Assembly (NCBI GenBank): GCA_002245135.1
Contig: NGBS01000584.1
Span: 62,001-126,000 of the forward strand
Direction of reading: 5' to 3'
DNA length: 64,000 bases
Source: Proteromonas lacertae
Lineage: Eukaryota
The notes beneath the pieces were generated by a model. That model saw nothing but the letters and a program-made list of their open reading frames with translations. It did not search any database and was not told the DNA's origin. Of the stretch, positions 21,806 to 57,159 are shown piece by piece. Position 1 is the stretch's first letter. Every line of letters begins with the position of its first letter. The position numbers were made by a program, and so were the translations under genes.

Positions 21806-24299
21806 ATGGGTTGTTGTGCATCAGTATATACTTTAAGAATAAGATCTCTAGAAAACAGACGCTGTTGATGAAACTGTCAACACACCACAAGAAGGTATGG
21901 CTATATATCATTTTTCTACATTGTTTTATTTCTATAAATATATTCCATATCTATTTGGACTGTATTTTATCATAATTTAGATGAACAAGAACTTCCAGCC
22001 TCATCATTGCTATTCAAGCTGAAAACAGCATCAGACGAAGAAAAGTCTAAATATGCAGATAAACTATTGGAATTAATAAAGAAGAAAGGTATAAATTTTT
22101 TAATCTATGATAAAACATAGATCCAAGCTGTGCTACATTAGTAGACGATGAGAATTGCTCAGTTTTAATTGATAATTTAAGTTCAAATCAAACAACTGAT
22201 GTAAGACGAAAGATGTGTGAAATACTTGTAGCTTTAGGTGATTTAGATCGTATATTAGCAATAGTAATTTATATGTAATAGTCGGAAAAACAAAAGAATT
22301 TGTAAAGAAACACGATGGTAAGAAAGGATTAGATGGATGTATGACATCTGACAATGAGGAGTTAAAGAAATGTGCAAAAGAAGCATATGATAAACTAGTG
22401 GAGCTTACACCATTAGACCAATTAGAAGCGGAGAAGAATCCAGAAGAACAATTGAAAATAATAGAAAAACAAGTAAAAGAATTAGATTATGAAAAAGCCA
22501 AACCATTTTATGAGAAATTATCTCAGATTATTAAAGATAATGATAAAATAGATATATCTGAACAAACACTTGAATGTATAATTAAAGAAATAAAGAAGAA
22601 TAAAGAATCTAGACCAACCTTAGTTCCTATATTTTACAAACTATCAAATCAAGCCAAATATTTAGTTCCAATTATAAAGAATGATGGTTTAATTATATTA
22701 GTAACACAATTCAATACTGATAATAAAGATGAACATTTATATAAAGATATAGAGATTAATAATAATAATATATCTAAAGAATCTGGTGATATTTTATGCA
22801 ATACTGTTTCAGTTAAAGATGAAGGTAAAGATGAATTATGTAAAGGTGAAAATATGTCAATTATTGTGAAAGAATATAAGAATAATAATAAAGATACAGT
22901 TGATAATGCTATTAAAATAATTTGCAATATTCAGAGTAAAAGTATATATATATATATTATTGTATTAAATAGAGGATATATCTAAATCAATCGGTTTAAA
23001 ATTAGCCTTGGAATTCTACAAGAATGATGATGATAAGAAGCTACAAGAAATAGGAACAAAATGCTTATCAGAATTAGCAAAGAAAGAAGACCAAATTCCA
23101 GAATTTATTAGTATTGGAGCTATAACTGATATAATGGATGTATTTAAGAATAGCAAAGATTTTGATCGTAAAGTTAGTGCATGTTCAATTATCTTAGCTT
23201 TGTGTAATAGTAATAAATGTTTACCATATGTTATTAAAGATGGAGGATTGAAATTCTTATTGAATACTATTAAGATTGGTGATTTTAAGTTTGTTGATAG
23301 TGGTACTACTGCTAGTAATAAGAATCCAGATGATGATAGAAAGAATGAATTATCATCTGATAGTGAAAATGAAGAAACAGTAAAACCAAAGGAAGAAGAA
23401 GCAAAACCAATAGTTGAATCAAGAAAATCAAGTTCATCATCATCTGATAGTGATAGGCCAAAGGAAGAAGAAAAACCAAAGGAAGAAGAGTCAAAACCAG
23501 TAGTTGAATCAAGAAAATCAAGTACATCTTCAAGTGGAAAGTGAAAAACCAAAAGAGGAAGAAAAACCTAAGGAAGAAGAGTCAAAACCAGTCGTAGAAT
23601 CTCGAAAATCAAGTTCATCATCATCTGATAGTGACAAACCAAAAGAAGAAGAAAAACCTAAAGAAGAACCAAAACCAGCACAAACTAGAAGTAGATCCTC
23701 CTCATCATCATCCAGTGAGAGTGATAAACCAGTTGAAGAAGAAAAGCCAAAAGAAGAACCAGAACCAGCTCCAGCACCACCAACTGAAGAATCAAGAGAA
23801 AGATCAGGAAGTTCATCATCATCTTCATCATCCTCATCCAGTGATAGTGAAAAACCAAAGAAAGAAGATATAGAACCAACTGAATCAGGTAATCCAGATG
23901 CATTGAAGGAATTACATGATGCTGCTCGTAGTAGAAGTTCATCATCATCTTCTTCATCATCATCTAGTGATAGTGAAGCACCAGCAGAACCAGCTGCTGC
24001 TGCACCTCCACCACCAGCGAGAAAGGAAGAATCACCTAAACCAACTGAAGAAACAAGATCAAGATCATCCAGTAGTTCATCAAGTGATAGTGACAAACCA
24101 AATGAAGAAGAAAAACCTAAGGAAGAAGAGCCAAAGCCAGTTGTTGAATCAAGAAAATCAAGTACATCTTCAAGTGGAAGTGAAAAACCTAAAGAAGAAG
24201 AGCCAAAGCCAGTTGTTGAATCTCGAAAATCAAGTTCATCTTCAAGTGGAAGTGAAAAACCAAAAGAAGAAAAAAAAAAAAAGAGAATCAAAAAAAAAT

Positions 24300-24350
<51 letters not shown>

Positions 24351-27300
24351 CAGTGTTGAATCTCGAAAATCAAGTTCATCTTCAAGTGGAAGTGAAAAAC
24401 CTAAAGAAGAAGAGCCAAAACCAGTTGTAGAATCTCGAAAACCTAGCAATTCATCAAGTGGAAGTGAAAAACCAGTTGAAGATGGTAATAAATCAGAAGT
24501 AATTGATTATTATCAATTATCCAAAGCATTCATAAAGAAATTAGACGATGATCAAAAGAAACTCAGACCATTATCTTTCCAAATATTATTACAATTATCA
24601 CAAGATTCAAAAATAGCCAAAGACTTAATGAATTATGAGACAGTTTCACAATTTAAATTGAACTTAGTAGATGAATCAGTAGCTCACTGCAGTGCTGAAA
24701 TATTAGTAAATTTATTAGAAGTAGATACTGAAAAAGTATCTGACTGGATTAGTAGAGAAAGTGGTATAATATTTTTACTCAATTATATACTTAACAATTA
24801 CACAAATCATCCATCTCATATGTCAAAATTTGTTGATTTATACTGCAATGTGATGAACCAAGATTTAGATAGAAATGTTATATTATTACATAATGAATTT
24901 AAGACAACATATGGTAAAGAATTATACAATGATAAATCATCCTTAAAACTCAATAAAGAAAGCAAAAATCTCTTATATTTCTTGAAATTAGTAGATTTAT
25001 TATCAACTAAGGATTGTAGCAAGATAATAAACGCTATTAGAGATCTTGAATTAACAACTAAAGAAGAACTACAAGATGCTACTAAATCATTAAATGAATG
25101 TGTCAGTGTGAAAGGTAAGAATGAACCTGAAGATTTAGAAGATATAGAATATCCAGAAGAATTAGAAGATGATATTACTGACAGACAATGCAATCATTAT
25201 ATATTTAATTATCGTAAATGTTATCCAAAGTGTGTTAATTTATTAGGATTTGATGATGAAATAGTGAAAGGTAATATATGTAGAATATTGATTGAAATGT
25301 TAAATAAAAGTATCTATTTATTTTATTTATTATTATTAATATAGAAAATATTGAACAATATTGTCATGATCAAGAATTCTTTACACTCTTATGTACAGTA
25401 TTAAGTTCAGAATCAATGGAAACCAAAGTAGCTGCTTATACATTGTTATTGAAATACACACCAATTGAAGGAGTTCCACCATTAATCCGTGAAGGAAGAG
25501 GTATTAAACCAATCATTAACGAATTAAAATGTGAAGATAAAAGTCTATTAGTTATTGTTTGTGGTTTAATAAGAGATTTAAATAAAGGTGATAATGAAGT
25601 ATATAAGATTATGAATAGATTTAGAGTTATTTATTCACTTATCGATATTATTAGAAGTGAAAAAGGTGAATTAAGAAAAGCTGCTTTAGAAGCCTTAGCT
25701 GCATTGACTCGTATTGAAGAGAATAAGAGAACTGTTAAGGACTTAGCATTATCATTATGTATGAATGTAATATACGATGATGAGAATGAAGATGATGTAA
25801 AATTAGCAGCTGCTGAAGTTATCAACGAAATTGCCATTGTAAACTTCTTCAAATTCGAAATAAAGAAAGATAAAGGTATTTCAAAGTTATTAAATGTAAT
25901 AAAATCAACTGACAGTGTAGAATTGAAAGTGTGTTTATGTAATATTATCTCCAGTTTGGTAATCAATGATACTGATAGACTATCAGTTATTAATGATGAT
26001 GGTTTAACTATCTTAATGGATTGTGTTAATATTGAAGGTAATACTGATTTATTATTAGCTTCCTCCACTATATTAGCCAAAGCATCCAGTAGTGCAACTG
26101 GTAGACCAAAGATGGTGAATGAAGGTATTATTGAAACAGCTATTAATAAGATGACTGTTGATAATCATGATATTAAAGTGAATTGTTGTACAATATTGAA
26201 TAAAGTGGCTTATAATGAAGAGAATTGTAAGAATATTGTACAGACATATGATGGTGTTGAACCAATCTTAGACTGTTTGAAATTACAATCAGATGAATTA
26301 GCTATATTAGTAATCAGTATAATGTACAAATTAGCATTGAATTGTGAATCAAATATACAAATCTTATTAGAAAAAGAAGTACCAGAAATGTTAATTAGAT
26401 GCTTAGAGAATGGTAATGATACTGTAAAAGTTGCTGCATTTGATGCTATTCATTGGTTATCATTGAAAGGTGTGAAATTACCTGCCTTTGCTGATGCTGA
26501 TATAATGAAATTAGTAGTAAACTGTTTGACAAGTGAAAGTACAGAAGTTGTACGACATGCTTGTACTACATTGTATTGGTTATGTTACAATGATCAGAAT
26601 TTAATCCCATTCGTAGTTGAATTTGATATATTAGGTACATTAATTGATTGTTTAGATAAAGATGATGTAGCTTTACAAACAATATCATTAAATGCATTGA
26701 ATAAATTATCTTACAATAATGAAGTAGCTGTTGAAGTATATGATAAAGGTGGAATTCCAAAAGTGTTATCTTTATTAGCTAATACCAATAAGAACAATCA
26801 AGATTTATTAATCCAAGTATGTAATTCAATCGCTTTATTCTGCGACAATGCTAAAATAAGACAATATATAGTAGATAATATAGAAAAGAGTGTATTAGAA
26901 GAATTATCCAATTCAACCAATATGACATTAGCATCTTCAGCAAGAAATGCAATAAAAGGATTAAGCAGTATTTCTGATGCTATTACATTACGTAAACCAA
27001 CTATGGATCCACAAGATTTAAGCAGATCAACCATCGTTACAGCTCATGGTAGATATTCAATGGATTGTCAAGATGTAAATCCAGATACAAGTATTGCTAA
27101 ACAGAAGAAAGATCAAGAAGAAAATGAAAGAGATAATTCAACAATTAATGAAGCTGATGAAAGTTTGAGTAATCCAGGTTCCTTTATTGAAACATCTGCT
27201 ATTGAAGATACACCATCATTCATTGAAGCACCACCAGCTATTAACGAGGAAGAGAAATTGCCTGAATTGAATGAATCTGCTATTACTAATAAAGATGATG

Positions 27301-27770
27301 AAGATAAGAAATCTGATACTAGTTCAGTTTCTAGTAAATCATCAGTCTCTGAACCAGAAGAACCAAAGAAAGAAGAAGAAGAAGAACCTCCAAAACAAGA
27401 AGAAGCACCAGCAGCACCAGTTGAATCTGCTCCTCCAGCTGATGAAACAAGATCAAGAAGTTCATCTTCATCAGTCTTCTTCAAGTGAACCACCTAAGCA
27501 ACCAGAACCAGCACCAGTAGTAGAAGAACAACCACCAGCACCAGCACCAGTTGAAGAAGCTCCAAATGCAGATGATACTAAATCACAGTCATCTTCAAGT
27601 TCAAGTTCTAGTAGTGAACCAGAAGAACCAAAACAAGCTGAAGCACAACCAGAACCAAACTCCTGCTCCAGAAGAACCAGCACCAGCTCCAGTAGAAGAA
27701 CAACCAAAACCAGATGATACTATGTCACAATCTAGCAGTTCCTAGTTCTTCATCATCATCTTCTGCTTAA
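21806..27770 (+). CDS. Armadillo-repeat protein with MGCCAS dual-acylation N-terminus and Ser/Glu/Lys/Pro repeat inserts; apparent frameshifts
   Basis: ATG GGT TGT TGT GCA TCA at 21806. ARM-like repeats in the 25416-27000 region (e.g. DKGGIPKVLSLL, DGVEPILDCL). Frame breaks near 23540, 24270-24350 and 27480-27740. Confidence 0.7.
23383..24475 (+). repeat. Coding minisatellite encoding EKPKEEEPKPVVESRKSSSSSS-type units, interrupted by an A-rich tract
   Basis: Repeated CCAGT(T/A/C)GT(T/A)GAATC(A/T)(A/C)GAAAATCAAG units visible several times. Confidence 0.85.
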
Positions 27771-38582: not shown

Positions 38583-38670
38583 TTTACATACTATTACTAT
38601 AATTTATGTCACTTAATTTTGGTTATTTCTTTGTTTTTGTCAAAATAGATTTTCAAGCCAAGTTTATATT

Positions 38671-39393
38671 ATGAGTGATTCTAACGAATTATTCGATGTA
38701 CTTGATCATAATGGGAATAAAACAGGATTAATTCGAACAAGAAAAGAAATACACAGTCGAGGGTTATTCCACAGAGTTGTTCATACATGGATTGGATGTA
38801 AAAGTGGTAAATTGTTGATGCAATTGAGAGATAAAGGTATTTTATCTATTCAATAATCTATTAGCAAAGGATACATATCCAAATAAATGGGATATTTCAA
38901 GTGCAGGACATGTTGATGCAGGAGAGACAATAGAAAGAGCAATAAATAGAGAAGCCATGGAAGAAATGGGAATAAATTTAAATGGAGCATCTTGTTTTCA
39001 TATTGGAACTGGTTTAGAGTCTTTTAATTTAGTTGAATTGAAATATTCAGTGAGTGAAATAATGGAAGTGAATTTATTCATATTGAAGGATGAAATTCCT
39101 CCAGAATCCTTTATATTAAGAGAGAATGAAACAGCTGGATTTAAATGGGTACCAGCTGAAGAAGTTCTTCATAAATTTAGTAATAAATGTTCAGAATATG
39201 TAATACTGACTGATTCAACATTGAATGAATATTATATTCCATATTTTAATAAAATGATAAATATTTTAAACAACATAAAGAATAAGGAAGATAGTAAATT
39301 AAATATAAAATTAGTGAAACAAGTATAATAACTTGAATTATAATTATTTAGATGAAATTACAAATTCCAGAATTATCATTTATAATTCCATAA
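38671..39393 (+). CDS. Nudix hydrolase, IDI-like subfamily, copy 1 (2 introns)
   Basis: GLFHRVVHTWI...KDTYPNKWDISSAGHVDAGET...REAMEEMG Nudix box. Last exon MKLQIPELSFIIP*. Confidence 0.85.
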
Positions 39394-39502
39394 TTAATCT
39401 TTTTTATTTTATTTATTTATTTATTATTACTAATGAAAGATGATGTAATTATGTTTTATTGTTGTTTTTTTCAAAATAGAATTGTCAAGCCAAGTTTTTA
39501 TT

Positions 39503-40296
39503 ATGAATGATTTAATCGAATTATACGATGTGCTGGATTACAATGGGAATAAGACAGGTTTTATTCGATCCAGAAAAGAAATACACAGTCGTGGATTATT
39601 TCACAGAGTGGTAGATACTTGGATTGCAACTAAAGAAGGAAATTTATTGCTACAATTGAGAGATAAAAGTATGAATAGCATTCTGATGATGTTTATAGCA
39701 AAGGAAACATACCCAGGTCGATGGGATATTTCTAGTTCAGGCCATGTAGACTGTGGTGAGACTGTAGGCGATGCAATATGTAGAGAAGCTATGGTATTTA
39801 TCAAGCATATATTAGTTGTCATAAAATAGGAAGAGATGGGAATTACTTTAGATTCAAGTTGTTTTTATCATATTGGAACAGGATTGGATAGTTTCAATTA
39901 TAGTGACAGAAACTATCATATTTCTGAATTGAAGGAAGTGAATTTATGTGTTTTAACAGAAGAAATTCCTCCAGAAAAATTCATTTTAAGAGAATTTGAA
40001 ACTGCTGGTTTTAAGTGGTTAAAAGCTGAAGAAGTGATGGAAGGATATAAAAATAGTGATTTATCTTATGCTACAATGTGTGAAGAAACTTTGAAATATT
40101 ATATTCCTTTTTTTAAAGATATAATAGAGTATATTGATTATTTCTATTTATAATAGGATATTGAATAAAATAAAGAATGAAGATATTAACAAAATGAAAA
40201 TAAAGAAAGTAAAGCAAGTATTTATCAATTGTGTATTTATTTTGAAAATAGATGAAACTTTCCATACCAGAACTGTCGTTTATATATCAATCATAA
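39503..40296 (+). CDS. Nudix hydrolase, IDI-like subfamily, copy 2 (4 introns)
   Basis: GLFHRVVDTWI...ETYPGRWDISSSGHVDCGET...REAM|EEMG. Last exon MKLSIPELSFIYQS*. Confidence 0.85.
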
Positions 40297-40471: not shown

Positions 40472-41803
40472 ATGTTAGAAAGTGTTCCCAGAGAAAGCTC
40501 TCCTCTAACAGTGAGGGTTGCGTTTGATACTCCAGCTCGTCCAACTCTCTCTCCTTTAAATTACAAAAGATCAGAACAAGCATACATAAATCCTCCTAAT
40601 AGTTCTCCTTTTCATTACAGACCAATGCCATTAAATAGATATACCTCTGACAGTTCTAAGAATATAGCTGATGAATTAAATGATAATATATCACTGCAAG
40701 TACAGAGAAGACATTATGGAAGACCAATTACACCCGATTCTGTAATGCTTAACACAATAAATGCACCAAAAGAACCATCTAGAAATACAAATATACACAC
40801 CACAGTAAGAGGAATAAGAGTTGTACATGGAACAAGACAGACTCTATATTCTTGTAAAAATCCAGTTCCAATTAGCCAGTTGTTGAATTATTCAGAATAT
40901 AAAAAGACACAGGCAGCAACAATAATACAAGCATATGCGAGACGATTTCTAGTAATGAAGAAATACAAGAAAGAAGAACAGATTAGATTAGTATTTACAT
41001 TAATCATATATATATACATTATAAATAGCAAGAATATTATCTATTCAGATCCAGTCTACATCAAAAACTACCAAATGAATTATCAAAAATCAATAAATTC
41101 AAAAGAGAAGATTTGCTAGACACAATTAAAAATGAAATAGATATGGATGTAAAGTATGTAATAGATCCACGAATAGTAGTGGAAGATAAAACATCCAGTC
41201 TGAAAGTACTATTTAATTTTTGTGATATTAATCACGATGGCTATTTAACTCTACATGATTTAAGTGTGTTTATTAAATATATATTAAAATGTGGTTATAG
41301 TAAGAAGGAAATTTCTAATATAATATTTATGTGTGATAGTACTAATAGGAAATTGTTAAACTTTACAATGTTCCAATGGTGGTTTACTAATGATTTTTTA
41401 CATCGAAAAGGAGAATCTACTTTAGAAAAGATGAGAAAGATGCTAGTGTCATTTAAAAGTTCATTTTCTTCTAAATTAGATGTTTATTATGAGTATAAAA
41501 ATATAATAATATATTATCAATAGATCATATTATCAGCATGTATATTTAAAAAAAGAATTTCATCGTTTATTAAAAGAATATAAACAAGAACATCCTCCAC
41601 GATTCAAATGTAAATATTGTTCATTTTGTAACCCAAATCCAATGGAAGTGGCTCATCATACAGTTCAATGTGGATGGGATAGAATGAATCAAATTGAGAA
41701 TAATGTGGAAGGTGACTTTGTAGAAAGTGAATATAGTGATGATGAAGACAGTTGTAATAATGTCAACGAAGAAATCATTTATGATGATATTGATAAAGTG
41801 TAA
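40472..41803 (+). CDS. IQ-motif and EF-hand protein
   Basis: AATIIQAYARRFLVMK (IQ), DINHDGYLTLHD (EF loop), and C-terminal FKCKYC...HH, possibly a zinc finger. Confidence 0.7.
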
Positions 41804-42064: not shown

Positions 42065-45000
42065 TTATTTTGCAACTACTTCCTGTAATTTTGTTAATGC
42101 TATTCCAAATGCTTGAACAAGAGACAAGGGATATTTATAATCCAATACCCACGATTGTTCTATTCTAAATAATCTCAAAACAGGAGCTGGAATATACAAT
42201 GGCTTTTTACTTACTTCTAAACTCCTCACTAATTTATTCACTTTTTCTCTTGCTGGTTTTGCTTTGCTTAAAAACAAAACTTCTTCATCAGCTTCAACAT
42301 CATTGTTTTCTTTTAAATTATACTTAATTGGAGGTAAAGATAAGCAAAATGATTTACAATCAGTATCATTCTGAGTTCCAGAGACATTTATTTCTTCAAA
42401 GAATGCTGAAAAATGGTCTTTCTCTGATTTTGATGATGTATAAGCGTCTTCAGGTGTTTCATAAGTGGGAATACAGACTTGGTAGTTATAGGCAGGATAA
42501 TGAGACTTCTCTTCTACTTTAATTACTGCTAAATCTTTATAAGTACCATCATCAGTTCCAATAATTTCTGGATCATCATTTATAAGCAAAAAGATTGAAC
42601 CATTTGGATGACAAATTAATGTTGCTAAATATCCTTCACTTTTTCTATTCTTTAAAACATCATCAATATCTAAAGACATTATTATTTTATCTCCATATTG
42701 TTTTGCATAACAGATTGTAATAAACTCTTCAGAAGCATCAGGTAAGAAAAAACCACATTCATAATACTATATAAATATAATTAATATATGTATACTGTTG
42801 ATAAAAGTTTAGTTTGTTTATTAATTTGTACTCTAACATAAGCATTTCCATTAGGTGATTGAAATGGACAAACAAAACAGAAGTTTTTAATTTCACTAAA
42901 CTCCAAACCTGGTAATGAAGACATATCATAATATAAAGAAACTTTTCCATTCAAATTCTTTACAGTATAACATGGTGGTAAATATATTCCAGTTCTCACA
43001 TAAAAACCTCTGAAATATCTTGAAATTGTTGTAACAGCTTGTATCTTTCTTTCTCTTAATCTTTGAGCTTCTTCTTTCCATCCTTTTATTGCTTTTGGTA
43101 ATAATCTAAACTTGAAACAATTGAATGCTTTAATTCTGTTTTCTTTACGTCTTGCTTCATTTTCTTTAGTTATTCTGCAGTATTCTTTAAACACAGGAGT
43201 GATTAATTTCTTATTACTATATTCTATAGCTATTTTCATTTGTTCTCTTCTAAATTCAACTACTCTAACCCATTCTTTGAAATGATTCTTCAGAGTTATT
43301 CCATTATGCTTCTTCAAACCAATATCTACCTTTTCTTGTCTTAAATCTATCAATTCCAAAATATAATCTTTCCATTCAGTAAATACTTTGATTTGACAGA
43401 GTGTATGATAATGTGCAACAGATTTTAATTCATGTTCATAACGAATACTGAGAAGATGTAATACATATTTACTCCATGAATCAAAATATAACTTTAACAG
43501 ATGTGTCTTATAATGTAAAACAGCTTTATGTTCTTTTTCTTTTATTTGATTTACATTTTCAATAGCATTCTTATTCCATGTTTTAATACATGATCTCAAT
43601 AATCTAATCTTATCATGTTTAACAGCAATCATGAAATGTTTCCATTCTTTCATCATTTTTGTAAGAATCTTTGAATTATAGTGTTTAATAGCTTTTTCAT
43701 TATTCACAATATTTGATTGATTCAATTTAGTAATATAATTTTTATATACAATAAAATTCTTTCGCAATAAATGTGATTTATAGAAGTTAATTGCTTTTTC
43801 TACTTTATTTGGATCTACAGCATTCTGTAATTGTGAATATCTCAACCATTTTGCCATTATTCTTCTTTGCATTGTTCTATGATAATGATTTTCTGCTTTA
43901 ACCATATTATTATGTACTTTTTGAATATATTTCTTCCATGTTCTATAAGTTAGTTTCATACCACTCTTAGAATAGAAATCAGATGCAATTTTGTTCTTTT
44001 CTGGATCTTCTTTGTTTTGTTCAATTGTATATTTATTCCACTCTCTAAGTATAATTTTCATTACTTGTTTTTCTCTAAATCCAGCTGCTTTATTCATCTT
44101 TTCAGTGTTCATTTTATTCATTTCATCTATATAGCCCAACCACATATTAATTGTCTTACCTTTCAGCTTTTTGTTATAAAAATCATCTGCTTTTCGATAC
44201 TTTTTAGCAACAACTTCTAATAACACTTTCAAATTATCATACCATAACTCAATTACTCTCTTCTTGATATATTTATTATTCAAATGAACAGCTTTCATGT
44301 GTTTTTTCCAATCCTTCATCATATCAATCAACAACCTCTTATTATAATGATTAATAGCTACATTTTCATCTTCTTTTTCTTTCAACAACACTTTCTGAAC
44401 ATAACTATACCAAGATTTATAACTTTTATAAACCAGTGTATGAATGTAGTGTTTATTTGCTTTTTCATCATCTATAACTTCTTTCTTTTGATCTTTGACA
44501 TTATTATACCACAATTTGAAATATTTCTTATTAATTCTATCATTATAATGAGAAATTGATGAATTCTCTTTGATTTTCATATCTTTAATTTCTTTTACAG
44601 ATTCTTTCCATTGTTTTATTGATTTCTTCATCAATTTTTCATTATAATGTTTGTCTGATTTTGAAGCATTGAGTTTTTCTTCATCAATCAATTTCTTCAC
44701 ATAATTATACCATTTTTCTATTATCTTCTTTTCTATTGTGTTTCTGTAATGACTATTTGATTTAATGAGATTCTGTTTCTTCTTTGATGTAGTGTCAAAA
44801 ATATACTTTGACCAAGCTTTAAATGTCTTTTTCAACAAATGAGATATACAGAATTTTCTGGATTTTTCTTCATTCTTTTGGTTGATATCTTTCTGTTGAA
44901 TATGTTTATTCTTCCAGAGATTGTAACTATCTTTCTTTAAGTTCTTATTATAACAATTATTTGCTTTAGCTAAATCTTTAGGATCAGTAGAATTAATGTA

Positions 45001-48000
45001 TTTTGTAAACTTGTTCCAATTCTTGATAGTTCTTTTCTTAATCTTTTTATTGTTGAATTTCATTGCTTTTTGATTATTCTTATGATATGTGTCGATAAAT
45101 TTCTTCCATTTCATATAGCATTTAGTTAATTCAGTATGTTTAAAATGATTTTCAGCTTTCTCAACTTCTTCAGGTATTTCAGTGTTTTGATCAATTGAAT
45201 ATTTGTTCCATCTTGTTATAATTCTCTTCAGGATTATTGGATTTCGATGATTTACTGCTTTATTATAATTATTTTTACAAACTTCATGATATTTCTTCCA
45301 TAGTTTATAATAATCTTTCAATACATTCTTATTGTAATTCTTATTTGCTTTAACAACATCTTTTGGATCAGTTGAATTGATATATTTTGTGCATTTATTC
45401 CAATATTTGATTGTTTTCTTCTTCAATTGTCGTTTATTAAACTTGTCTGACTTTTCAACATTCTTGTGATATACATCTATATATTTCTTCCACAATTTAT
45501 AATATTTTATTAATCCAACTCGCTTAAAGTGATTTTCAGCTTTATCAACTTCTTCAGGTATTTCAGTGTTTTGATCGATTGTGTATTTATTCCATTCTCT
45601 TAAGATTTTCTTTAATATTATTGGATTTCGATGATTAATTGCTTTGTTGGTATTATTATGATGTAATTCTACATTCTTCTTTAATAAATTCATTCCGATA
45701 TTCAACAGTCGTTTAGCATTGTGTAAATTACTCTTTTCTAGTTCTTCTTCAGTTGTTAGTTGAGATTTATAATATTTATTCCATTCTTTTATTACTCTCT
45801 TCTTCAAATTAATGTTGAATTTCTTATTCGCCTTATTCACATTATTGTGAAGTATTTCTATTAATTTCTTCCAATTATTTATTGAATGTTTCTTTAGATT
45901 CTTATTATAACAATTAGTAGATTTCTCAACATCCTTTTCATCTACTGAATTTATATATTTCGTATATTTACTCCATTTTGTTAAGATTCTCTTCATTAGT
46001 TTCTTTTCACTAAATACAACAGCTTTAATATTTTTATTTTCAAGATATTTCTTCCATAAAATTATGAATTTCTTGGATAATACACTAATATGATGTTTAT
46101 TAGCTATTGCTATATGTTGTCTAGTTATTATTGCTTCTTCTTTTGTGTATTTATTCCAATGTTTAACTATCTTCTTCTTCATTTTTCTATTATAGAATTT
46201 ATCTGATTTTTCAACATTCTTATGATATGTTTCTACACTCTTTTTAAATCCTTTCTTGAAATATTTTGTTAATTGTTTAATTCTGTAATGATTTTCAGCT
46301 TTCTCAACTTCTTCAGGTATTTCAGTGTTTTGATCAATTGTATATTTGTTCCATCTTGTTATAATTCTCTTCAGGATTATTGGATTTCGATGATTTACTG
46401 CTTTATTATAATTATTTTTATAAATTTCATGATATTTCTTCCACAACAAATAAGTCTTTTTTAGCAATGAATTATTATAATGTTTACTAGCAATGATTAC
46501 ATGTTCTACATCTAATTCTCTTTCGTTTTGAGTAAATTTGAACCAATTTCTATATTCTTTTATCAATAATTTCTTAGTATAACTCTTATCAGCAGTTTCA
46601 ACATTCTTGTGATATACATCTATATATTTCTTCCACAATTTATAATATTTTATTAATCCAACTCGCTTAAAATGATTTTCAGCTTTATCAACTTCTTCAG
46701 GTATTTCAGTATTTTGATCGATTGTGTATTTATTCCATTCTCTTAAGATTTTCTTTAATATTATTGGATTTCGATGATTAATTGCTTTGTTGGTATTATT
46801 ATGATGTAATTCTACATTCTTCTTTAATAAATTCATTCCGATATTCAACAGTCGTTTAGCATTGTGTAAATTACTCTTTTCTAGTTCTTCTTCAGTTGTT
46901 AGTTGAGATTTATAATATTTATTCCATTCTTTTATTACTCTCTTCTTCAAATTAATGTTGAATTTCTTATTCGCCTTATTCACATTATTGTGAAGTATTT
47001 CTATTAATTTCTTCCAATTATTTATTGAATGTGTCATAAGGTTGTTGTTATAGCAATTATTTGACTTTTCTATATCCATTTCATCTACTGAATTTATATA
47101 TTTCGTATATTTGCTCCATTTCTTCAATAATTTCTTCATCAGTTTCTTTTCACTAAATACAACAGCTTTTGTATTTTTATTTTCAAGATATTTCTTCCAT
47201 AAAATTATGAATTTCTTGGATAATACACTAATATGATGTTTATTAGCTATTGCTATATGTTGTCTAGTTATTATTGCTTCTTCTTTTGTGTATTTATTCC
47301 AATGTTTAACTATCTTCTTCTTCATTTTTCTATTATAGAATTTATCTGATTTTTCAACATTCTTATGATATATTTCAATATATTTCTTCCACAATTTATA
47401 ATATTTTATTAATCCAACTCGCTTAAAGTGATTTTCAGCTTTCTCTATTTCTTCAGGAATTTCAGTGTTTTGATCGATTGTGTATTTATTCCATTCTTTT
47501 AAGATTTTCTTTAATATTATTGGATTTCGATGATTAATTGCTTTATTGTTATTATTATGATATATTTCAATACATATCTTAAATAATTTCATTGCTTTAT
47601 TCAGAAGTTGTTTTCTATAATGCGTTTTACTCTTTTCTATTTCTTCTTCGGTTATTAGTTGAGATCTGTAATAGTCATACCATCTATTGATTACTTTCTT
47701 CTTCATATTACTAGTATATTTCTTATTCGCTTTATTTGTATTATTGTGAAGCATTACAATGAGTTTCTTCCAATTATTCATTGAATGTTTCTTAAGGTTG
47801 TTGTTATAGCAATTAGTAGATTTCTCAACATCCTTTTCATCAACTGAATTAATATATTTCGTATATTTACTCCATTTCTTCAATAATTTCTTCAATAATC
47901 TAATTCTTCTAAACTCTTGAGAGTTTTTAACTTTCTGTTGGAATTGTAAGTGATACTTTAGATAAATCTGGAAATGTTTTGATAATAATTTCCTATCATA

Positions 48001-50381
48001 ATGATCATAAGCTTTGATATAATCTTGAGTATGTACAAGTTGAGATAAATAGTATTTATACCATTTATGAATATACTTCCTTCTTAATTTCTTTTTATTA
48101 AATCTTATAGCTCTCTTCATATGTCTATGCATCTTCTTAGTGAAATATTTCCATTCTTTATAATATTTATAAGTTATTCTATGATTATAATGATTATATG
48201 CGATTATAGTATTCTCTTTTTCTTCTTTTACCACTCTCTTTACATATTTATACCAATTAGTAATAAACTTTGCAAGTGTCTTAATTATAAATTGTTTTTC
48301 AGCTTTTTCATTATTCATTTTTGTAATTGGAATAATCTTCTTCCATTGAGTAAAGAGTTTAGTTTTCATATGCTTTTGATAGTGTTTATCAGCTTTTTTA
48401 ATAGCAATTGGATGTAAAGCAAATTCATACCAAATCTTACAACTTTTATCTTTAAGAAATTTATCATAATAAATTTGAGCTCTTATATCTTTAGCTTGTA
48501 AATCATCAACATAATTAACCCATTTTCTAAATGATTTATTAGTGAGGGTTTTATTCCTATGTTCTCTAGCTTTTAGTTCATCCTTTTCATGTCTAATATT
48601 ACTTTCTAAAGCATAATGATACCAAGCAATTGATGTTTTCTTTGCTATTTTTTCATTATAATATCTGATTGATTTTGGAATTAATGATTGTAGATGATAA
48701 TAATAATTATACCATCTAATAAAATGTTTCTTTAACATCTTTAATCTATAATAAAGTTTTGCTCTTGATTCAAATGCTGGATTTGAATATGAATCTACAT
48801 CAACAACATGATTCTCACTCATATATTTCTTATATTTCATATACATTCTATCAAAATAATATATTTAATATATACTTTGAATGATTCTGTAATGTGACTA
48901 ATTTATCATAATAAGAAGCTTCAAAACATTCCAATTGTTTATAAAATTGATAATAACTTATACATCTTTCATAATATGGTCTATTATTTATTGTTGAAAT
49001 AAGACTTCTTCTTGGTCTTATTAATTTCTGCTGTAAATTCTCTAAGTTTCGAATATCACCTTCTAATTTCATTTTAGTCTTCTATATTTCGTTAGAAAAA
49101 TTAAAAGTTATACAGCATTTTTGTATTGTATTATTACAGAATCTGTTGATGATATTGAATTGTTTATTTTACTTAATTCATATTTTGCTGTTAATATATC
49201 CATTTCAACTTTTATTGAATTATTTGATGTGTTTTTATTAATGAAATTATTGATGTAATCTTTTCTATCTTTTATTAACCTACTATTATTATTAATAATT
49301 TGCTTTATTTCTATTGGAATTCTTTGATAATCTTTCATCAAATAATCAATCAAATCATCTGAAAATACAATAGTTTCACTATTTACTTTAATTATTGTAT
49401 GAACATAAGCTTGTATTGTCTGCATTGTTTTTATAATCAAATAATCCATTTAATACAGATGCTATTGAATCATCTGATAAAAAATAAGATTCTTTCTATT
49501 TATAATAATAATAATAATTAAAATGATTATACTGTGCAATTATTTACATATATATATTGTCTGATTATTAAATAAAAAGACAGTAAATCATTCTCTTCAT
49601 TAGAAGATAGAAATGATCTGAAATATCTGACTATTGGCTGATTATTACAGTTTTCAATTGAATATATCATATTATATCCTTTCTATAATTATAGTATATA
49701 TTATTGTTATAATATATATACATTTCTGACGAGTGAAATATCTAAACATTCTTTACATAATAAATAATAGACATGATATGGAAATGGATCTAATATTAAA
49801 TCATCTTTCTATTTCATTTTAATAATATATAAATATACTTTCATTGAAAAGCATGTTTCATAATCGTATCTTTTAGAAAATATATACAACACTTGCTTCA
49901 TTAAATCTTTGGTTGGAATAAGTGAGTATGAAGGAGGAGAAAAAAGTGAATCTGGAATAAAAGATAGGAATAAAGACTATTAATTCTTTATTAATAGGAT
50001 ATTACATACATATTTTTTGGAAATATCAGAAGTTAACCCAACAAGCCTTGGAGAAACAGGTGATTCTGGTCTTTCTATTTTTGGAAGTTGTTTAGGCCGT
50101 CTAGGTAATTGACCGAGGTGTGTAGATAATATATTATCCGTATCACTCGCAGTTCTGCTTATATCTCCTTTACGAACCAATTTTAATGGTTTAATACCTT
50201 CACTATCAGATCTTCTTAAAGCAGATGCTGAACGACATTTTTGAGGAGTTTGTATATAAAAATCGCCGAAATTTACTGATTTTGAGAGAGGAGTGACATC
50301 TGGATTAGACCTATTTGTAGAAATAGGTGCTAGTGATGGTGGTGTCCTTCTAAATGACGATATTCCCCTTCTTTCAGTCAT
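42065..50381 (-). CDS. Giant protein (about 2600 aa): Sfi1-like Trp repeats, IQ motif, C-terminal Tubby domain
   Basis: Seven GT-AG introns join the ORFs at 49980, 49108, 48851, 42781 and 42065 in frame. Periodic A...(H/Y)....L.K.....W repeats, ISRYFRGFYVR, and terminal LDYKYPLSLVQAFGIAL. Confidence 0.75.
45140..47370. repeat. About 1.14-kb near-identical intragenic tandem duplication
   Basis: CTTCCACAATTTATAATATTTTATTAATCCAACTCGCTTAAA occurs at about 45487 and 46630, with a third partial copy near 47387. Long identical peptide blocks recur in the ORF. Confidence 0.9.
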
Positions 50382-50509
50382 TAAGTGGTCATATGACTCA
50401 AAAAATTATAAAAATAAAATTATAAAACGATCTTTCTCAAAATAGATTTGAATTGTTTTTTCAATTTTGTTAAACACATGAAAAACAACAATTTATAATA
50501 AATTATAAC

Positions 50510-52437
50510 TTAATTTACATCAATTGGAGAGGTTGCAGGTTCAACTTCAGTAAAGTCTGCTGTTTCACCAGCTCTGTATCTTCTTCTCTCAACTGCTTTT
50601 ATATAAGCTCTTCTTTCCCTTCTAATCGTGATCCAATTAAGAAAATCATAAATAAGATAAAATCAACCACAAAAAAAGATATTTTTCTAGATTTCCTTGT
50701 GTTGTTCTTTCTCTTTTCATTTCATCATTGTTCACTCTTTCAGCTAATCTAGTCTCATTTATCTTTTGTGATTTGCCTATTCTCTCCCACATTCCTTTAT
50801 TTCTTTCATAATAACTCCTTAAATATTCTGGTTTTTGATATGCTAAATGATGATCAAAACTTTGTGTTGTTGTTGTGAATCTACCTTGTCGATTGATAGA
50901 AGAAGGAGATCCATTCTAATAATTAAATAACAACATATAAATAATACAATAGGAACAGTCAATCTAAATGTATTTGGTCTTGGAGTCTATTACAAGAATA
51001 AATAAAATCTAAATAAACATACACTTTCAAATCTAGAATGATACTTTACTTTTGGAATTTGTGGTATAAATCTATTCAACGGAACAATTGGTAATTCACT
51101 ACCATCCTTCTCCCTCCAGAAATGCCTTCTAATAACCAAAGGTCGTTTAAATTCAGCTACAAATCCTGTTCCATTCATTACAGTACAAATTGGTGTTAAT
51201 ACTTCCATCAAATCAGCTTCATCAATATAACCGTCTTTATTACTATCTAATAAATCAATTAATTCATCTGCTTCGCCATCTTCTAATGGTAATTTGTTTA
51301 AGAATTTATTAAAATCTTCATTACTTATGTAACCATCCTATTTAAAATAAAAATTAACAATTATACTTTATTTTTGTCCAATGAAATAAACAATTGTCTT
51401 ACTTTCATTATACTGTGTGGTAATAAATCAGTAACTTCTTTTCTATTTCCTAATTTTTCAATAATATCAGGTATTTTGGTAAAATCATGAACTTTTCTTG
51501 GCTTTAATTCTCTTGGATGAAGTCTTTCTCTTTGTTCCTCTGCTGATAATGATAAAAACTCTCTGAATTCTATTAGATTGAAATCTTCTTTATCTGAACT
51601 ATGGTTATTTATTAATTTAATTAACTCTTTAGCTGCTTCTTCAGTAACGTCTAAATGATACATATCAAAATATTTGACTAATTCTTTTGAGTTGGCAATA
51701 TCAGCAGTTTTACTACCTGTTATTATAGTAAACTCATGGAAGGGAGAACTACAGTTTGCTCTATTATGTAAATGTTCAATCATTCTTTGAATCACTGTGT
51801 TATTATCAATTATAATTTGAGTTACATTCATTGGATATAATGGATCATCGGTTCTATTGTATTTAGGATTTCTATCTATTTCTGGAGTTGGTGGTGGTGA
51901 TAGTTTTCTAAAATCGTTTATGAATCTTTCAAAATCTATCTCATCCTTGTGGTTTGGATCAATTATGTTCATTAATTCTTTTGCTTCATCTGCTGTGATT
52001 TCTACATGTAGCATTTTAACACCTTCCATAAACTCTTCTCTTGATATTCTATTATTTTGATCTAAATCGAATTTCCTAAATATTTCTAAAATGTAATTTT
52101 GTTCCTTTTCTTTTATTTTTTGTCTTAAGTTATCATATATATGTCTTGGTAACGATTTATAAGGTAATGGTCTTATACTTCTAAATGTAGGTCTTGTATA
52201 AGGTGGAGTTAATGGTCTATTACTAGATGGACCAGTTAATCTTAAAGGCTTCAAATTTTCAGGTTTATCTATTTTGGGAGACCAACATCTTCTTGTAAAT
52301 CTTCTTTGATGAGTGATTGGGCTAAAATCTTCATCTCTAACAGATATAAATCGTTTTAAAATATACTTTGTTCTATTACTTCTACCAATATTACATCGTG
52401 GTCTATATCTAGGCGATAATACTGCATCTAGAGACAT
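50510..52437 (-). CDS. Multi-EF-hand calcium-binding protein
   Basis: DLDQNNRISREE, DPNHKDEIDFE, DKNK|DGYISNED and DSNKDGYIDEAD loops. Multi-exon. Confidence 0.8.
50628..50682 (-). other. Candidate AT-AC (U12-type) intron in the EF-hand gene, 55 nt
   Basis: Minus strand reads ATATCTTTTTTTG...TTTTCTTAATTGGATCAC. Removal gives an in-frame GNLEK-IRRERRAY junction. Confidence 0.7.
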
Positions 52438-53017
52438 TTTTAATAAAAAACAGTCATATACACAAACATTGTTTGATTATCTTTATTTCTCTAATTAAAA
52501 TGTATTATTATAATATGACAGTATATTTGTTGAAATATTATTGCATGAAATAGACTCAAAAAATAATTTTCAAAAAATAGCAAAATCTGTATTTCAAAAA
52601 TTTGAATTTTAGGAGATAATCATATCAAGTGCAGACATACATAATGTATTCGTAATATTTTCTGATTAATCATACATCTCCTATTCTTTCATCAAGATTT
52701 TCTCGGAAATATCATAAAAGAATATTTCATATCGGCCTTTTGTTATATCATTGAAAGAGTTTTTTTAATAAAATAAAAAAATGAGCTTTTACTTTATAAT
52801 AATAGAGTTTTACTCAGATACCTGGCACTATATCATAAGCTTAATTATTAGCTTCATATATGCATAATATCTTCCAGAAATCTATTAAAATTCAATAAAA
52901 ACCCTTTATACTTACCTAAAAATACAAAATTATAAAATTAATAAATATATATTCGTTTTATCTAATTATTTTCTTTCATTACACATCAATAAAAGAAAAT
53001 AATACACAAATAATAGT

Positions 53018-55281
53018 TTAATATGATAAATTATCCTTCCATCTTGGATATGGAACAATATCTTTAATACTTTTCATTCCTACAATATACTTTACTAATT
53101 TATCAAAATAAACTGTAAATCCTCCATGATTAGTATTTCCATATTTTCTTAAATCTAAATACCATCTCATTGTATTTTCATCACATCCACATTCTTTCAT
53201 TTTTTCTTCTAAAACTTCAATTCTATCTTCTTTCACACAACCTTCTCCTATTATTCCTATTTCTGGTAATGTAACATCAAATGAATAACTATATTTATTA
53301 TCAATTCCAGTCTTAATATAGAATTTACTTTTATCAACTGGTTTATGATATTCAAATACTCCTTTTTCTCCTTCTTTTACTGTTTCACCTTCTTTATATT
53401 CTACTCTTTTAAATGGATTTAAAACTATTTTGTTTAATGTATCGATCTTTGATTCTATCTCTTCCGCTTTAGTAAACACATTCTTTAATTCATTTTTATT
53501 CTTTTCAATTACATAACATAAACAATATTTAATATAATCTTCACATATATCCATCAAATCTTCCATTTCAACAAAACTCATTTCAGTTGTCACATACCAT
53601 CTTTCACTTAATTCTTCTTCTTCTTCTGTATTTGTATTAAACACTGGATTAAATGAATAAACATCACCTAATGATAAACAGAAAGGTTCAATGGATAATT
53701 CATTGGATTGGCAAAGTGTAACTTCTCTCTTAAAGAAATCTTCAGTGTAATCTATTTTTCCATCTTTAGTATATTTCATTTGTTTCTAAATTATTACAAT
53801 AATAATAACAATATATTCATACTGTTTTATCATTAAACATAGTAGTAACATTAAAAACAGAATCACATACTACTGGTTTATTTGATGTAATAATAGGTGG
53901 ATTAATGTAGATAAATCCATGTTGATTATAAAATAAGTGAGTAGCAAATGAACAACTGTTTCTGACTTTCATAATATTTCCATACTATTGATAAGATTAA
54001 TAAATAAATATATATGTAATACAATCTTGTTTCTAGGTCTTAAATGATAAATTGATTGAATTGCACTAATATCATCTTTATCAATTAACAAATCACCATT
54101 ATTCTGACTTAACGAAACAATCTCATTAACATTCATTTTTACATTTCCTTCAAGTTTCTTTGATATTATGCCTTTCACTTCTATTGTATAATTCTTTCTT
54201 ATTTTCAAATCTTCTGAAATATTATCTTTATTAATTGTAAGTGTCAAACAATCATAATATGAACCATCATTTATATCAACTTCAACCATATTCTTATCTT
54301 CTGATTCTCTGATAGTTTCAATCCATCCACATACCTTAATCTCATTGTTATTCATATTTGAATCATTTATATTATAGATATCTTGTATGTATACTCTTTT
54401 TCTTGTATATTTATAACTCAAATTCGTTGATAATATAGCTACATTTTTGTTAATTGCATTGATATCATACTCTGGATAATTTCTCTTTATATCTATTTTT
54501 CTATTCTCTATTTTAACATCTTTTTCTTTTCTAGTAACTTCTATATCTTGTTTCTTTTTCTTCTTATTTAATTCATTTTGAGTAGCATAATATGTTATAT
54601 CTCCTAACACATCATGAATTTCAGTCTAAACGAATAAAAAATAGAAGTAATATACAATTGTTAGACAATTTGAGAAATACTTTGTTAAAACAGGTAATTC
54701 ATTTCTTTCTTTCTCAGTTAATATCATTTTGAATACATTCCAAAGATCGCACACTAATGATATATCAGCAAAACTTAATTCATCATCTATTAGATATTTA
54801 TGATGCTTTAATTCTTCTTCAATAATCATTAGTTTATTCTTCAAATCTTTCTTTGATTCTTTACTAACCTATTTATTAAGAAAAGATATTAATTTTCATT
54901 ATACTACTCTATTTTCTCTTATTTTTTTAAATGAAGGGAATGTCAATACTCCTATTGGAACTTCAAGTTCGTTCATTTCAAAATCCAACCATTTATCAAC
55001 CATAGCTTTTCTAAAGTCAGTTGCTCCATATAAACTACTAGCAGTTGGTAAAGTACCAAACATTCTGATAATTGTGTTTGCAGAAGTAAAGGTATTTGTT
55101 CCACAAGATAATATTGGTGTCTTTTCACTATCTCCAGTAACTTCAATATGTTTTACTGGGAATTTAGTAAGTTTCTCAATAATACTGATCTAACTCATTA
55201 AATAGATATTTGATATACCTTTTTTGAATTATAATCCTCATTATTATATTTTAATGTAAAATGACAATTAATTCTGTTCAT
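53018..55281 (-). CDS. GST-like domain fused to a degenerate asparaginyl-tRNA synthetase-like protein
   Basis: N-terminus SANTIIRMF...LYGATDFRKAMVDKWLDF...YLIDDELSFADI (GST/EF1B-gamma-like). OB fold VCGWIETIR...INDGS. Core DGKIDYTEDFF and WYLDLRKYGNTNHGGF...DIVPYPR. Confidence 0.8.
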
Positions 55282-56303: not shown

Positions 56304-57083
56304 TTAAAAATAGGGAATAAATGAAAAATAGAACCACACTACCGTGTTCTTTGAAGGGTCGATGATTAAATAACATCTGTTGTTTAATTCTTCAGATATA
56401 AACAATTCTTCACTTTTTACTTGAAGCACCGCTGAAGCAACTGAAATTTCCTTTGTTTCTGGGTTTTTATGAACTCTTAACAAATCTTTGTATAATTTCA
56501 TTGTCATTTCCAAATATCCATTCCATTTATCATCAACTTGACATAATGAACCTCCTATAACTAGCCATGAAAATAAATGGTATATGAATTCATTCTTTTC
56601 TTCTTCTGAATAAAGATCTGCATTTTCTGAGTCTATATTACATAAATATTCTCTTAATAAATCTTGACATTGTACATTTTCATAATATTCATCCATACAA
56701 CTACGAATTGATCCATCTTCTGCTATTATAGGTGATTGTTTGAATCTATCAAAAAAAGACATTGACAATATATTGGTTGAGAGTTTATTTGTTGATATAT
56801 CATTTATCACTTCAGTTTTCTTCATTTGAGATTTATCTGCTACACGTATGTGTTCTTTAACAACATCAGATTTGAAAAAATCATTTGTAAAGTCACTTGC
56901 ATCAAAATCTCGATATTTACCTTTGAAATTAAACTTTAATATTTGAAATGTTTCATTAATACCCCTATAGAATTAGATTTTTCTTTAATACCACTGAGTT
57001 AGTTTTTCATTCGCATCAGCTTTCTTTAATGTGTTAACAGTGAATTTCTCATCAAAAGAAAAAGTGTATTTTGGATCAGCCAT
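56304..57083 (-). CDS. CFAP300: Cilia- and flagella-associated protein 300 (C11orf70/DUF4498)
   Basis: SMSFFDRF...DLLREYL..DSENADLYSEEEKNEFIYHLF..LVIGGSLCQ.DD...YL...KLYKDL..V.K. One intron near 56966-56991. Confidence 0.85.
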
Positions 57084-57159
57084 CAACGTATAACGACTTT
57101 TGAATTTTTAAAAATTTAAAAACGTCAAGCTTTTGATTTGTAATTTTGAAAATAAAATC

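What the first reader, a model, noticed from the sequence alone, without database searches (positions are those of the whole stretch)
42065..50381. Sfi1-like repeat rod fused to an IQ motif and a C-terminal Tubby domain
Seen: about 1900 aa of repeats with Trp roughly every 30-35 residues (A..H....L.K.....W..Y), then an IQ-like motif. A short GT-AG intron near 42768-42796 joins this in frame to a region matching Tubby landmarks (IMSLD..D...GYLATL...NGSIF; LDYKYPLSLVQAFGIAL). Established: Sfi1 repeats bind centrin at centrioles and spindle pole bodies, and Tubby domains bind phosphoinositides and act in ciliary membrane trafficking. Inference: a long centrin-coated, calcium-responsive fibre tethered to membrane. 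I do not recognise this architecture from characterised proteins.
Basis: partly seen in the sequence, partly recalled or inferred. Interest (0 to 1): 0.7.

Follow-up and report, generated by a model that had tools for sequence, protein, structure and literature searches.

The report
Centrin-binding rod capped by Tubby domain
A flagellated single-celled eukaryote has one gene that joins about 59 centrin-type binding repeats to a Tubby-fold domain lacking the usual lipid-binding residues, a combination also seen in relatives, which likely makes a long cytoskeletal fibre with a built-in docking end.

Summary
The fusion is real. One open frame holds 59 Sfi1-type repeats (Pfam Sfi1, E 1.5e-43), an IQ-like helix and the first ~50 residues of a Tubby domain. 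A 29-nt GT-AG intron (42795-42767) joins it in frame to the rest of the domain. A relative at 79% identity has the same repeats-IQ-Tubby order and the same intron. A distant relative (40%) runs through the junction with no intron. The last exon folds like Tubby (Z 15.8 to mouse Tubby).

The PI(4,5)P2-binding residues K330 and R332 are T and I, the second basic site is mostly gone, and the domain is acidic. It is still 90-94% conserved in close relatives, against 69% for the rod.

Best reading: a ~290-nm centrin-coated fibre of the flagellar apparatus whose Tubby end docks on a protein partner. Centrin binding, location, calcium response and splicing were not shown directly, and no RNA run was listed. 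Exons 1-7 rest on sequence alone. I found no description of this architecture in the papers searched. New variant of the Sfi1-repeat proteins.

The parts
48876..50381 (-). Exons 1-7 (aa 1-432): Ser/Pro-rich N-terminal stretch, then a region of unknown family; six introns of 30-39 nt
   Evidence: In-frame GT-AG model; no Pfam hit above cut-off; no homologue or RNA support
48848..48875 (-). 28-nt GT-AG intron joining the N-terminal exons to the repeat exon
   Evidence: As separate genes the two ORFs would abut with no gap, whereas the flanking gaps are about 140 and 260 nt at GC 0.17
43057..48780 (-). Sfi1-type repeat rod, aa 456-2363: 59 repeats (53 with Trp), mostly 34 and 30 residues long, about 286 nm if one helix
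45098..47414 (-). Recent internal duplication of 381 aa (offset 1143 nt); 82-93% identical, with exact runs of 321 and 200 nt; an older offset of 756 nt is also present
42994..43047 (-). IQ-like helix (S in place of Q), aa 2367-2384
   Evidence: Sequence; conserved in P0030 and P0019; no Pfam IQ hit
42796..42948 (-). First ~50 residues of the Tubby domain, in the same exon and frame as the repeats
   Evidence: Aligns to stand-alone Tubby P0001 residues 169-214; the last exon alone aligns only to mouse Tubby 282-502
42767..42795 (-). 29-nt phase-0 GT-AG intron inside the Tubby domain
   Evidence: same place and length in P0030; absent in P0019 and P0168
42065..42766 (-). Last exon: rest of the Tubby barrel and its C-terminal helix; K330->T (42622), R332->I (42616), basic site 301-305 reduced to one Lys (near 42706)

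Best explanation
One gene encodes a 2683-residue protein with 59 Sfi1-type repeats, an IQ-like helix and a C-terminal Tubby-fold domain; it likely forms a centrin-coated fibre about 290 nm long in the flagellar apparatus, whose Tubby end likely docks on a protein partner and not on PI(4,5)P2. Shown: the repeats, the order of parts, the Tubby fold of the last exon, conservation in relatives, loss of the lipid-binding residues. Inferred: each repeat binds one centrin, as in yeast Sfi1; the IQ-like helix binds one more EF-hand protein; the coated helix sets a distance or bears load, for example between basal bodies and nucleus or cortex; the strongly conserved barrel caps or anchors one end. The Tubby part probably came from a duplicate of a stand-alone Tubby gene of the same lineage.
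For: Sfi1 profile hit and consensus positions: Ala/Ser at -16 in 52 of 53 repeats, hydrophobic at -8 in 45 and at -3 in 51. Tubby start lies in the repeat exon. P0030 (79% identity over 221 aa) has repeats, IQ and Tubby start in one ORF and reads into the same 29-nt intron; six last-exon orthologues are about 90% identical, and one lies on a contig of the same length as P0030's (1736). P0019 and P0168 (40%) cross the junction without an intron. AlphaFold model of the last exon: pLDDT 84.7; all 7 Foldseek hits at E<=0.001 are Tubby/TULP1; VIA Z 15.8, rmsd 4.4 over 182 residues. K330/R332 are T/I, whereas 83 of 86 proteins matching the pocket pattern keep both basic (149 scanned). Net charge -9 against -4 to +10 in seven other Tubby domains. 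IQ plus Tubby start 81/86 identical to P0030, rod 92/133. CFAP300 in the window points to a flagellated host.
Against: No binding, localisation or RNA evidence. The strict Sfi1 consensus matches only 1 of 53 repeats. Lengths of 34 and 30 give 160 and 120 degrees per repeat, not the ~65 of yeast filaments (PMC2063913), so a canonical filament needs local unwinding. The stand-alone relative P0001 also lacks R332, so part of the pocket change predates the fusion. In P0019 only one weak repeat is visible (domain E 0.043), so the deep relative proves the IQ-Tubby join better than the rod. No partner for the barrel is known. The fold model used an alignment rich in Tubby homologues and so leans to that fold.
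Confidence: 0.5

Rival explanations
1. Membrane tether by lipid: the Tubby domain binds a phosphoinositide or other membrane lipid and ties the centrin fibre to plasma, Golgi or nuclear membrane.
For: The Tubby fold is kept and strongly conserved. In Proteromonas, a possible kind of host, a rhizoplast passes through the Golgi to the nucleus (PMC2997541, figure legend).
Against: K330, R332 and most of site 301-305 are replaced; KR330/332AA lowers PI(4,5)P2 affinity in mouse Tubby (PMC10445746, passages). The domain is acidic. A different lipid at another site is not excluded.
Confidence: 0.2
2. Calcium-driven contractile fibre: calcium binding to the centrins kinks the rod at repeat-locked prolines and shortens it, pulling against the Tubby-anchored end. 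This can coexist with the best explanation.
For: Paired 34+30 sub-repeats, with prolines clustered 22 residues (9 of 20) and 10 residues (5 of 20) before the next Trp. This recalls the 36+33, proline-split repeat of Spirostomum Sfi1 that compacts with calcium (bioRxiv 10.1101/2024.11.07.622534, passages). Repeat number is nearly three times that of yeast or human Sfi1 (20-24).
Against: Only 20 prolines over 59 repeats. Yeast Sfi1-centrin filaments were 59 nm with and without calcium. The IQ motif is degenerate.
Confidence: 0.22
3. No fusion: the Tubby part is a separate transcript that starts at an internal Met of the big exon, or the join is an assembly chimera.
For: No RNA evidence. A Met lies just before the first Tubby strand. 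No full-length fused protein was found in the collections.
Against: The frame is open from the repeats into the Tubby start with no GC seam. The same order is found in P0030 and P0019 from other organisms. The IQ-linker stretch upstream of that Met is conserved.
Confidence: 0.05

Closest known systems
Yeast Sfi1p and human SFI1 (Pfam PF08457)
   Same: Tandem helical repeats with Ala at -16, hydrophobic residues at -8 and -3, and Trp; a rod predicted to bind one centrin per repeat.
   Different: 59 repeats against 20-24; lengths 34/30 against mostly 33; an IQ-like helix and a folded Tubby domain at the C-terminus.
Giant ciliate centrin-binding proteins (Paramecium PtCenBP1, Spirostomum GSBP1/2, Stentor Sfi1, Tetrahymena Sfr)
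   Same: Large size, many repeats, paired sub-repeats with prolines.
   Different: No Tubby domain is mentioned in the passages read; fewer prolines here; repeat unit 64 against 69.
Tubby/TULP family (Pfam PF01167; PDB 1i7e, 3c5n)
   Same: Barrel fold with a C-terminal helix; C-terminal position in the protein.
   Different: PI(4,5)P2 residues replaced, acidic domain, 17-19% identity; preceded by a repeat rod in place of a disordered N-terminus.
Unnamed stand-alone Tubby proteins P0001, P0015, P0016
   Same: About 31% identity over the whole domain (P0001); group with the fused domain in a quick tree (SH-aLRT 98).
   Different: No Sfi1 repeats; P0001 keeps K330 and the basic 301-305 cluster.

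Membership tests
Sfi1-repeat proteins | Match to Pfam Sfi1 above cut-off | tested here: met
   149.7 bits against 22
Sfi1-repeat proteins | Tandem AX7LLX3[F/L]X2W consensus (PMC8622359) | tested here: met
   Positions kept with conservative changes in 43 of 53 Trp repeats (shuffle mean 0.3); strict pattern in 1 of 53
Sfi1-repeat proteins | Each repeat binds centrin | not testable with these tools
SFI1 orthologue (centriole/SPB) | 20-24 repeats, mostly 33 residues long | tested here: not met
   59 repeats of mostly 34 and 30 residues
SFI1 orthologue (centriole/SPB) | Location at centriole or spindle pole body | not testable with these tools
   Needs imaging
Tubby domain | Profile match | tested here: met
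   Pfam Tub 29.4 against 27 on 24 residues; own profile of Tubby hits matches positions 61-319 of the spliced C-terminus, E 1.2e-17 among 15 sequences
Tubby domain | Beta-barrel with C-terminal helix | tested here: met
   pLDDT 84.7; Foldseek TM 0.46-0.55; VIA Z 15.8, rmsd 4.4, 182 aligned; last exon only, alignment rich in Tubby homologues
PI(4,5)P2-binding Tubby/TULP adaptors | Basic residues K330 and R332, and second site 301-305 | tested here: not met
   T and I; one Lys left in the second site
IQ calmodulin-binding motif | IQxxxRGxxxR pattern or Pfam IQ | tested here: inconclusive
   4 of 5 pattern positions, S for Q; no Pfam hit; conserved in relatives

The most novel reading that the evidence does not exclude
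This is the backbone of a basal-body-to-nucleus (rhizoplast-type) fibre in gut flagellates: a centrin spring whose length is tuned by ongoing repeat duplication and whose end is gripped through a Tubby barrel that has been turned from a lipid sensor into a structural anchor, a use of the Tubby fold I did not find described.
Probability: 0.25. Interest if true: 0.75.

Novelty: new variant of a known kind. Interest (0 to 1): 0.55.

Why it matters
How centrin-Sfi1 fibres attach at their ends is poorly known outside yeast, where the C-termini pair with each other. Here a folded domain of known structure sits at the end of the rod, which gives a direct handle: pull down its partner and the anchor point is named. 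It also suggests that the Tubby fold can be kept under strong selection after losing its phosphoinositide pocket. The range looks narrow (a few unnamed relatives), which limits general impact.

Tried and rejected
No whole genome is held. No sequencing run was listed, so there is no RNA test. Searches for longer fused proteins (409-2000 aa only) found one stand-alone Tubby and nothing; these cannot see a 2683-aa protein. Two metagenome scans: no locus and one chance bacterial-looking match, L001, rejected. Fold of the P0001 domain from a 4-row alignment was unusable (pLDDT 39.6). PDB sequence hits to the designed WD40 protein Tako8 are summed weak repeats, rejected; the rod has no PDB sequence hit. 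Atlas: last exon gave Tubby clusters at 0.90 with low recognition, a lead only; the junction gave nothing at 0.9 or above. Exons 1-7: no Pfam family above cut-off, a weak RGS hit set aside; their identity stays open. Three other in-frame GT-AG choices at the junction (65, 71, 71 nt) were rejected on GC content and homologue alignment. The host as one of eight sequenced Blastocystis strains was rejected: they have 0 CFAP300, 0 Sfi1 and 0 IQ entries. None of 7 window ORFs was in the collection by exact look-up, nor the big ORF. The careful tree did not finish; only the quick tree is used. Earlier scan findings: none relevant. No complex was predicted, as no centrin was at hand.

Full report
Setting. 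The window is eukaryotic, 27% GC, read with the standard code, with short GT-AG introns. It holds a CFAP300 gene (Pfam E 6.6e-61) and a gene with a Pfam IQ motif. In a supplementary table of PMC12129017 (Table S5 rows), CFAP300, Sfi1 and IQ entries are 0 in all eight Blastocystis strains and 1, 1 and 68 in Proteromonas lacertae, which also has 11 Tubby entries. The host is therefore likely a flagellate, and a Proteromonas-like gut stramenopile would fit. This is an inference: I did not place the organism by phylogeny. The first two named hits of the Tubby profile were oomycete proteins.

Gene model. A minus-strand ORF of 2027 aa (48864-42781) is followed by a 233-aa ORF (42766-42065). A 29-nt phase-0 intron at 42795-42767 joins them. 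Seven more introns of 28-39 nt extend the frame to an ATG at 50381, giving nine exons and 2683 aa with no internal stop. All eight introns have GC 0.08-0.22. Four GT-AG pairs could join the last two ORFs in frame; the 29-nt one has the lowest GC and restores the spacing of homologues. Exons 1-7 rest on sequence alone.

The rod. Pfam Sfi1 matches at E 1.5e-43 in 13 stretches. The 53 Trp residues are spaced 34 (24 of 52 gaps) or 30 (14 of 52) apart. Six further repeats without Trp fill long gaps, for 59 over 1908 aa. Ala/Ser stands at -16 in 52 of 53, a hydrophobic residue at -8 in 45 and at -3 in 51. These are the positions of the published consensus AX7LLX3F/LX2W (PMC8622359, passages), though the strict pattern matches only once. 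The relaxed pattern occurs 43 times against a shuffle mean of 0.3. At 0.15 nm per residue the rod is about 286 nm. Yeast and human Sfi1 have 20-24 repeats, and 33 residues best fits the 65-degree step between centrins (PMC2063913, passages). Here 34 and 30 give 160 and 120 degrees, so the filament must unwind locally or pack differently. A 381-aa block was duplicated recently (82-93% DNA identity, exact runs up to 321 nt). The copies differ, so this is not a plain assembly repeat, but the exact repeat count could still be mis-assembled.

The Tubby domain. Pfam Tub catches only the last 24 residues (29.4 bits). A stand-alone homologue, P0001 (Pfam Tub E 3.9e-24), aligns to the last exon (E 9e-26) and, more weakly, to the end of the repeat exon (15 of 48 identical, E 0.003). 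So the domain starts in the same frame as the repeats. An AlphaFold model of the last exon from a 110-row alignment has pLDDT 84.7. All 7 Foldseek hits at E<=0.001 are Tubby or TULP1, and VIA-align gives Z 15.8 (rmsd 4.4, 182 residues) to mouse Tubby 282-502. The alignment was rich in Tubby homologues, so the model leans to that fold.

The fusion is conserved. A profile search of 1.84 billion representatives gave 150 hits. P0030 has Sfi1 repeats, the IQ-like helix and the Tubby start in one ORF (79% identity over 221 aa), then reads into an intron of the same place and length. P0014 and five cluster members match the last exon at about 90%. P0166 and P0030 have the same longest-contig length, 1736, which suggests one locus. 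P0019 and P0168 (40%) run from one degenerate repeat through the IQ-like helix into the Tubby core with no intron; P0017 (51%) probably continues that gene (contig length 8703 for both). The repeat in P0019 is weak (domain E 0.043). Of 61 proteins scanned in Pfam, only P0030 hit Sfi1; of 189 scanned with a repeat profile, only P0030, P0019 and P0168 scored. No full-length fused protein was found; the hits are ORF fragments. In a quick tree of 47 rows the fused domain groups with stand-alone P0001, P0003, P0015, P0016 and P0180 (SH-aLRT 98) on a long branch (2.15), so attraction of long branches is possible.

The lipid pocket. PMC10445746 (passages) names K330 and R332 as the canonical PI(4,5)P2 pocket and residues 301-305 as a second site. 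I placed these on chain 1s31, counting back from residue 505 (length recalled). In the fusion they are T and I, and the second site keeps one Lys. The position of R363 (recalled as a third contact) is Y. Of 149 hits scanned, 86 matched the pocket pattern and 83 of these keep both basic residues; the fused domain has net charge -9 against -4 to +10 in seven others. P0001 keeps K330 but not R332, so some change predates the fusion. The IQ plus Tubby start is 81/86 identical to P0030 while the rod is 92/133, so the barrel is under strong constraint for something.

Mechanism. Most likely (0.5) the protein is a centrin-coated rod of the flagellar apparatus with a Tubby barrel that docks one end on a protein partner. 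Centrin binding follows from family knowledge; location and docking are inferred. A calcium spring (0.22) is suggested by paired sub-repeats and clustered prolines, like Spirostomum Sfi1 (bioRxiv 10.1101/2024.11.07.622534, passages), but yeast filaments ignore calcium. A lipid tether (0.2) needs a new binding site. Separate transcripts or a chimera are unlikely (0.05). If the host is Proteromonas-like, the rhizoplast that runs through the Golgi to the nucleus (PMC2997541, legend) is the obvious candidate structure; its composition was not checked.

Novelty. Full-text searches found 0 papers with Sfi1, Tubby and centrin and 3 unrelated proteomic or methylation papers with Sfi1 and Tubby (listing only). 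None of the 12 listed of 78 papers contains 'tubby domain'; one search listed one plant paper. The Proteromonas genome paper was not held, subscription papers are not searched, and bioRxiv supplements were closed, so a mention there cannot be excluded. Also read as passages: bioRxiv 10.1101/2025.08.11.669701 and PMC6492006. Verdict: a real, conserved, apparently undescribed domain architecture; a new variant of the Sfi1-repeat proteins; interest 0.55.

Noticed in passing
window 56304-57085 (-): CFAP300 gene (Pfam E 6.6e-61), a flagellar dynein assembly factor; marks the host as likely flagellated.
   Followed up: yes
window 40472-41803 (+): Gene with a Pfam IQ motif, an EF-hand pair and a small Cys/His-rich end, tail to tail with the fusion gene.
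   Followed up: partly
window 50500-52476 (-): Multi-EF-hand gene directly upstream on the same strand; not centrin-sized. Neighbourhood is probably incidental.
   Followed up: partly
window 38617-40153 (+): Two tandem Nudix-like genes; the first passes the Pfam cut-off, the second is below it.
   Followed up: partly
window 53018-55200 (-): Class II tRNA synthetase gene (Asn-like by eye) with an N-terminal region that looks GST-like (recalled, untested) and divergent-looking catalytic motifs.
   Followed up: no
window 49533-49976 (-): Exons 2-4 of the fusion gene resemble, by recall only, the helical module of TSNAXIP1-like ciliary proteins; Pfam gave nothing.
   Followed up: partly
window 22242-27717 (+): Large armadillo-repeat gene with Ser-rich acidic repeats and a long poly-A run near 24270-24350 that may be an assembly error.
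   Followed up: no
proteins P0001, P0015, P0016, P0018, P0021, P0024, P0033: A Tubby subgroup shares a short GxQN-type insertion before the late strands, also present in the fused domain.
   Followed up: partly
protein P0081: A Tubby domain fused to armadillo repeats in Rhodelphis marinus: another unusual Tubby fusion.
   Followed up: no
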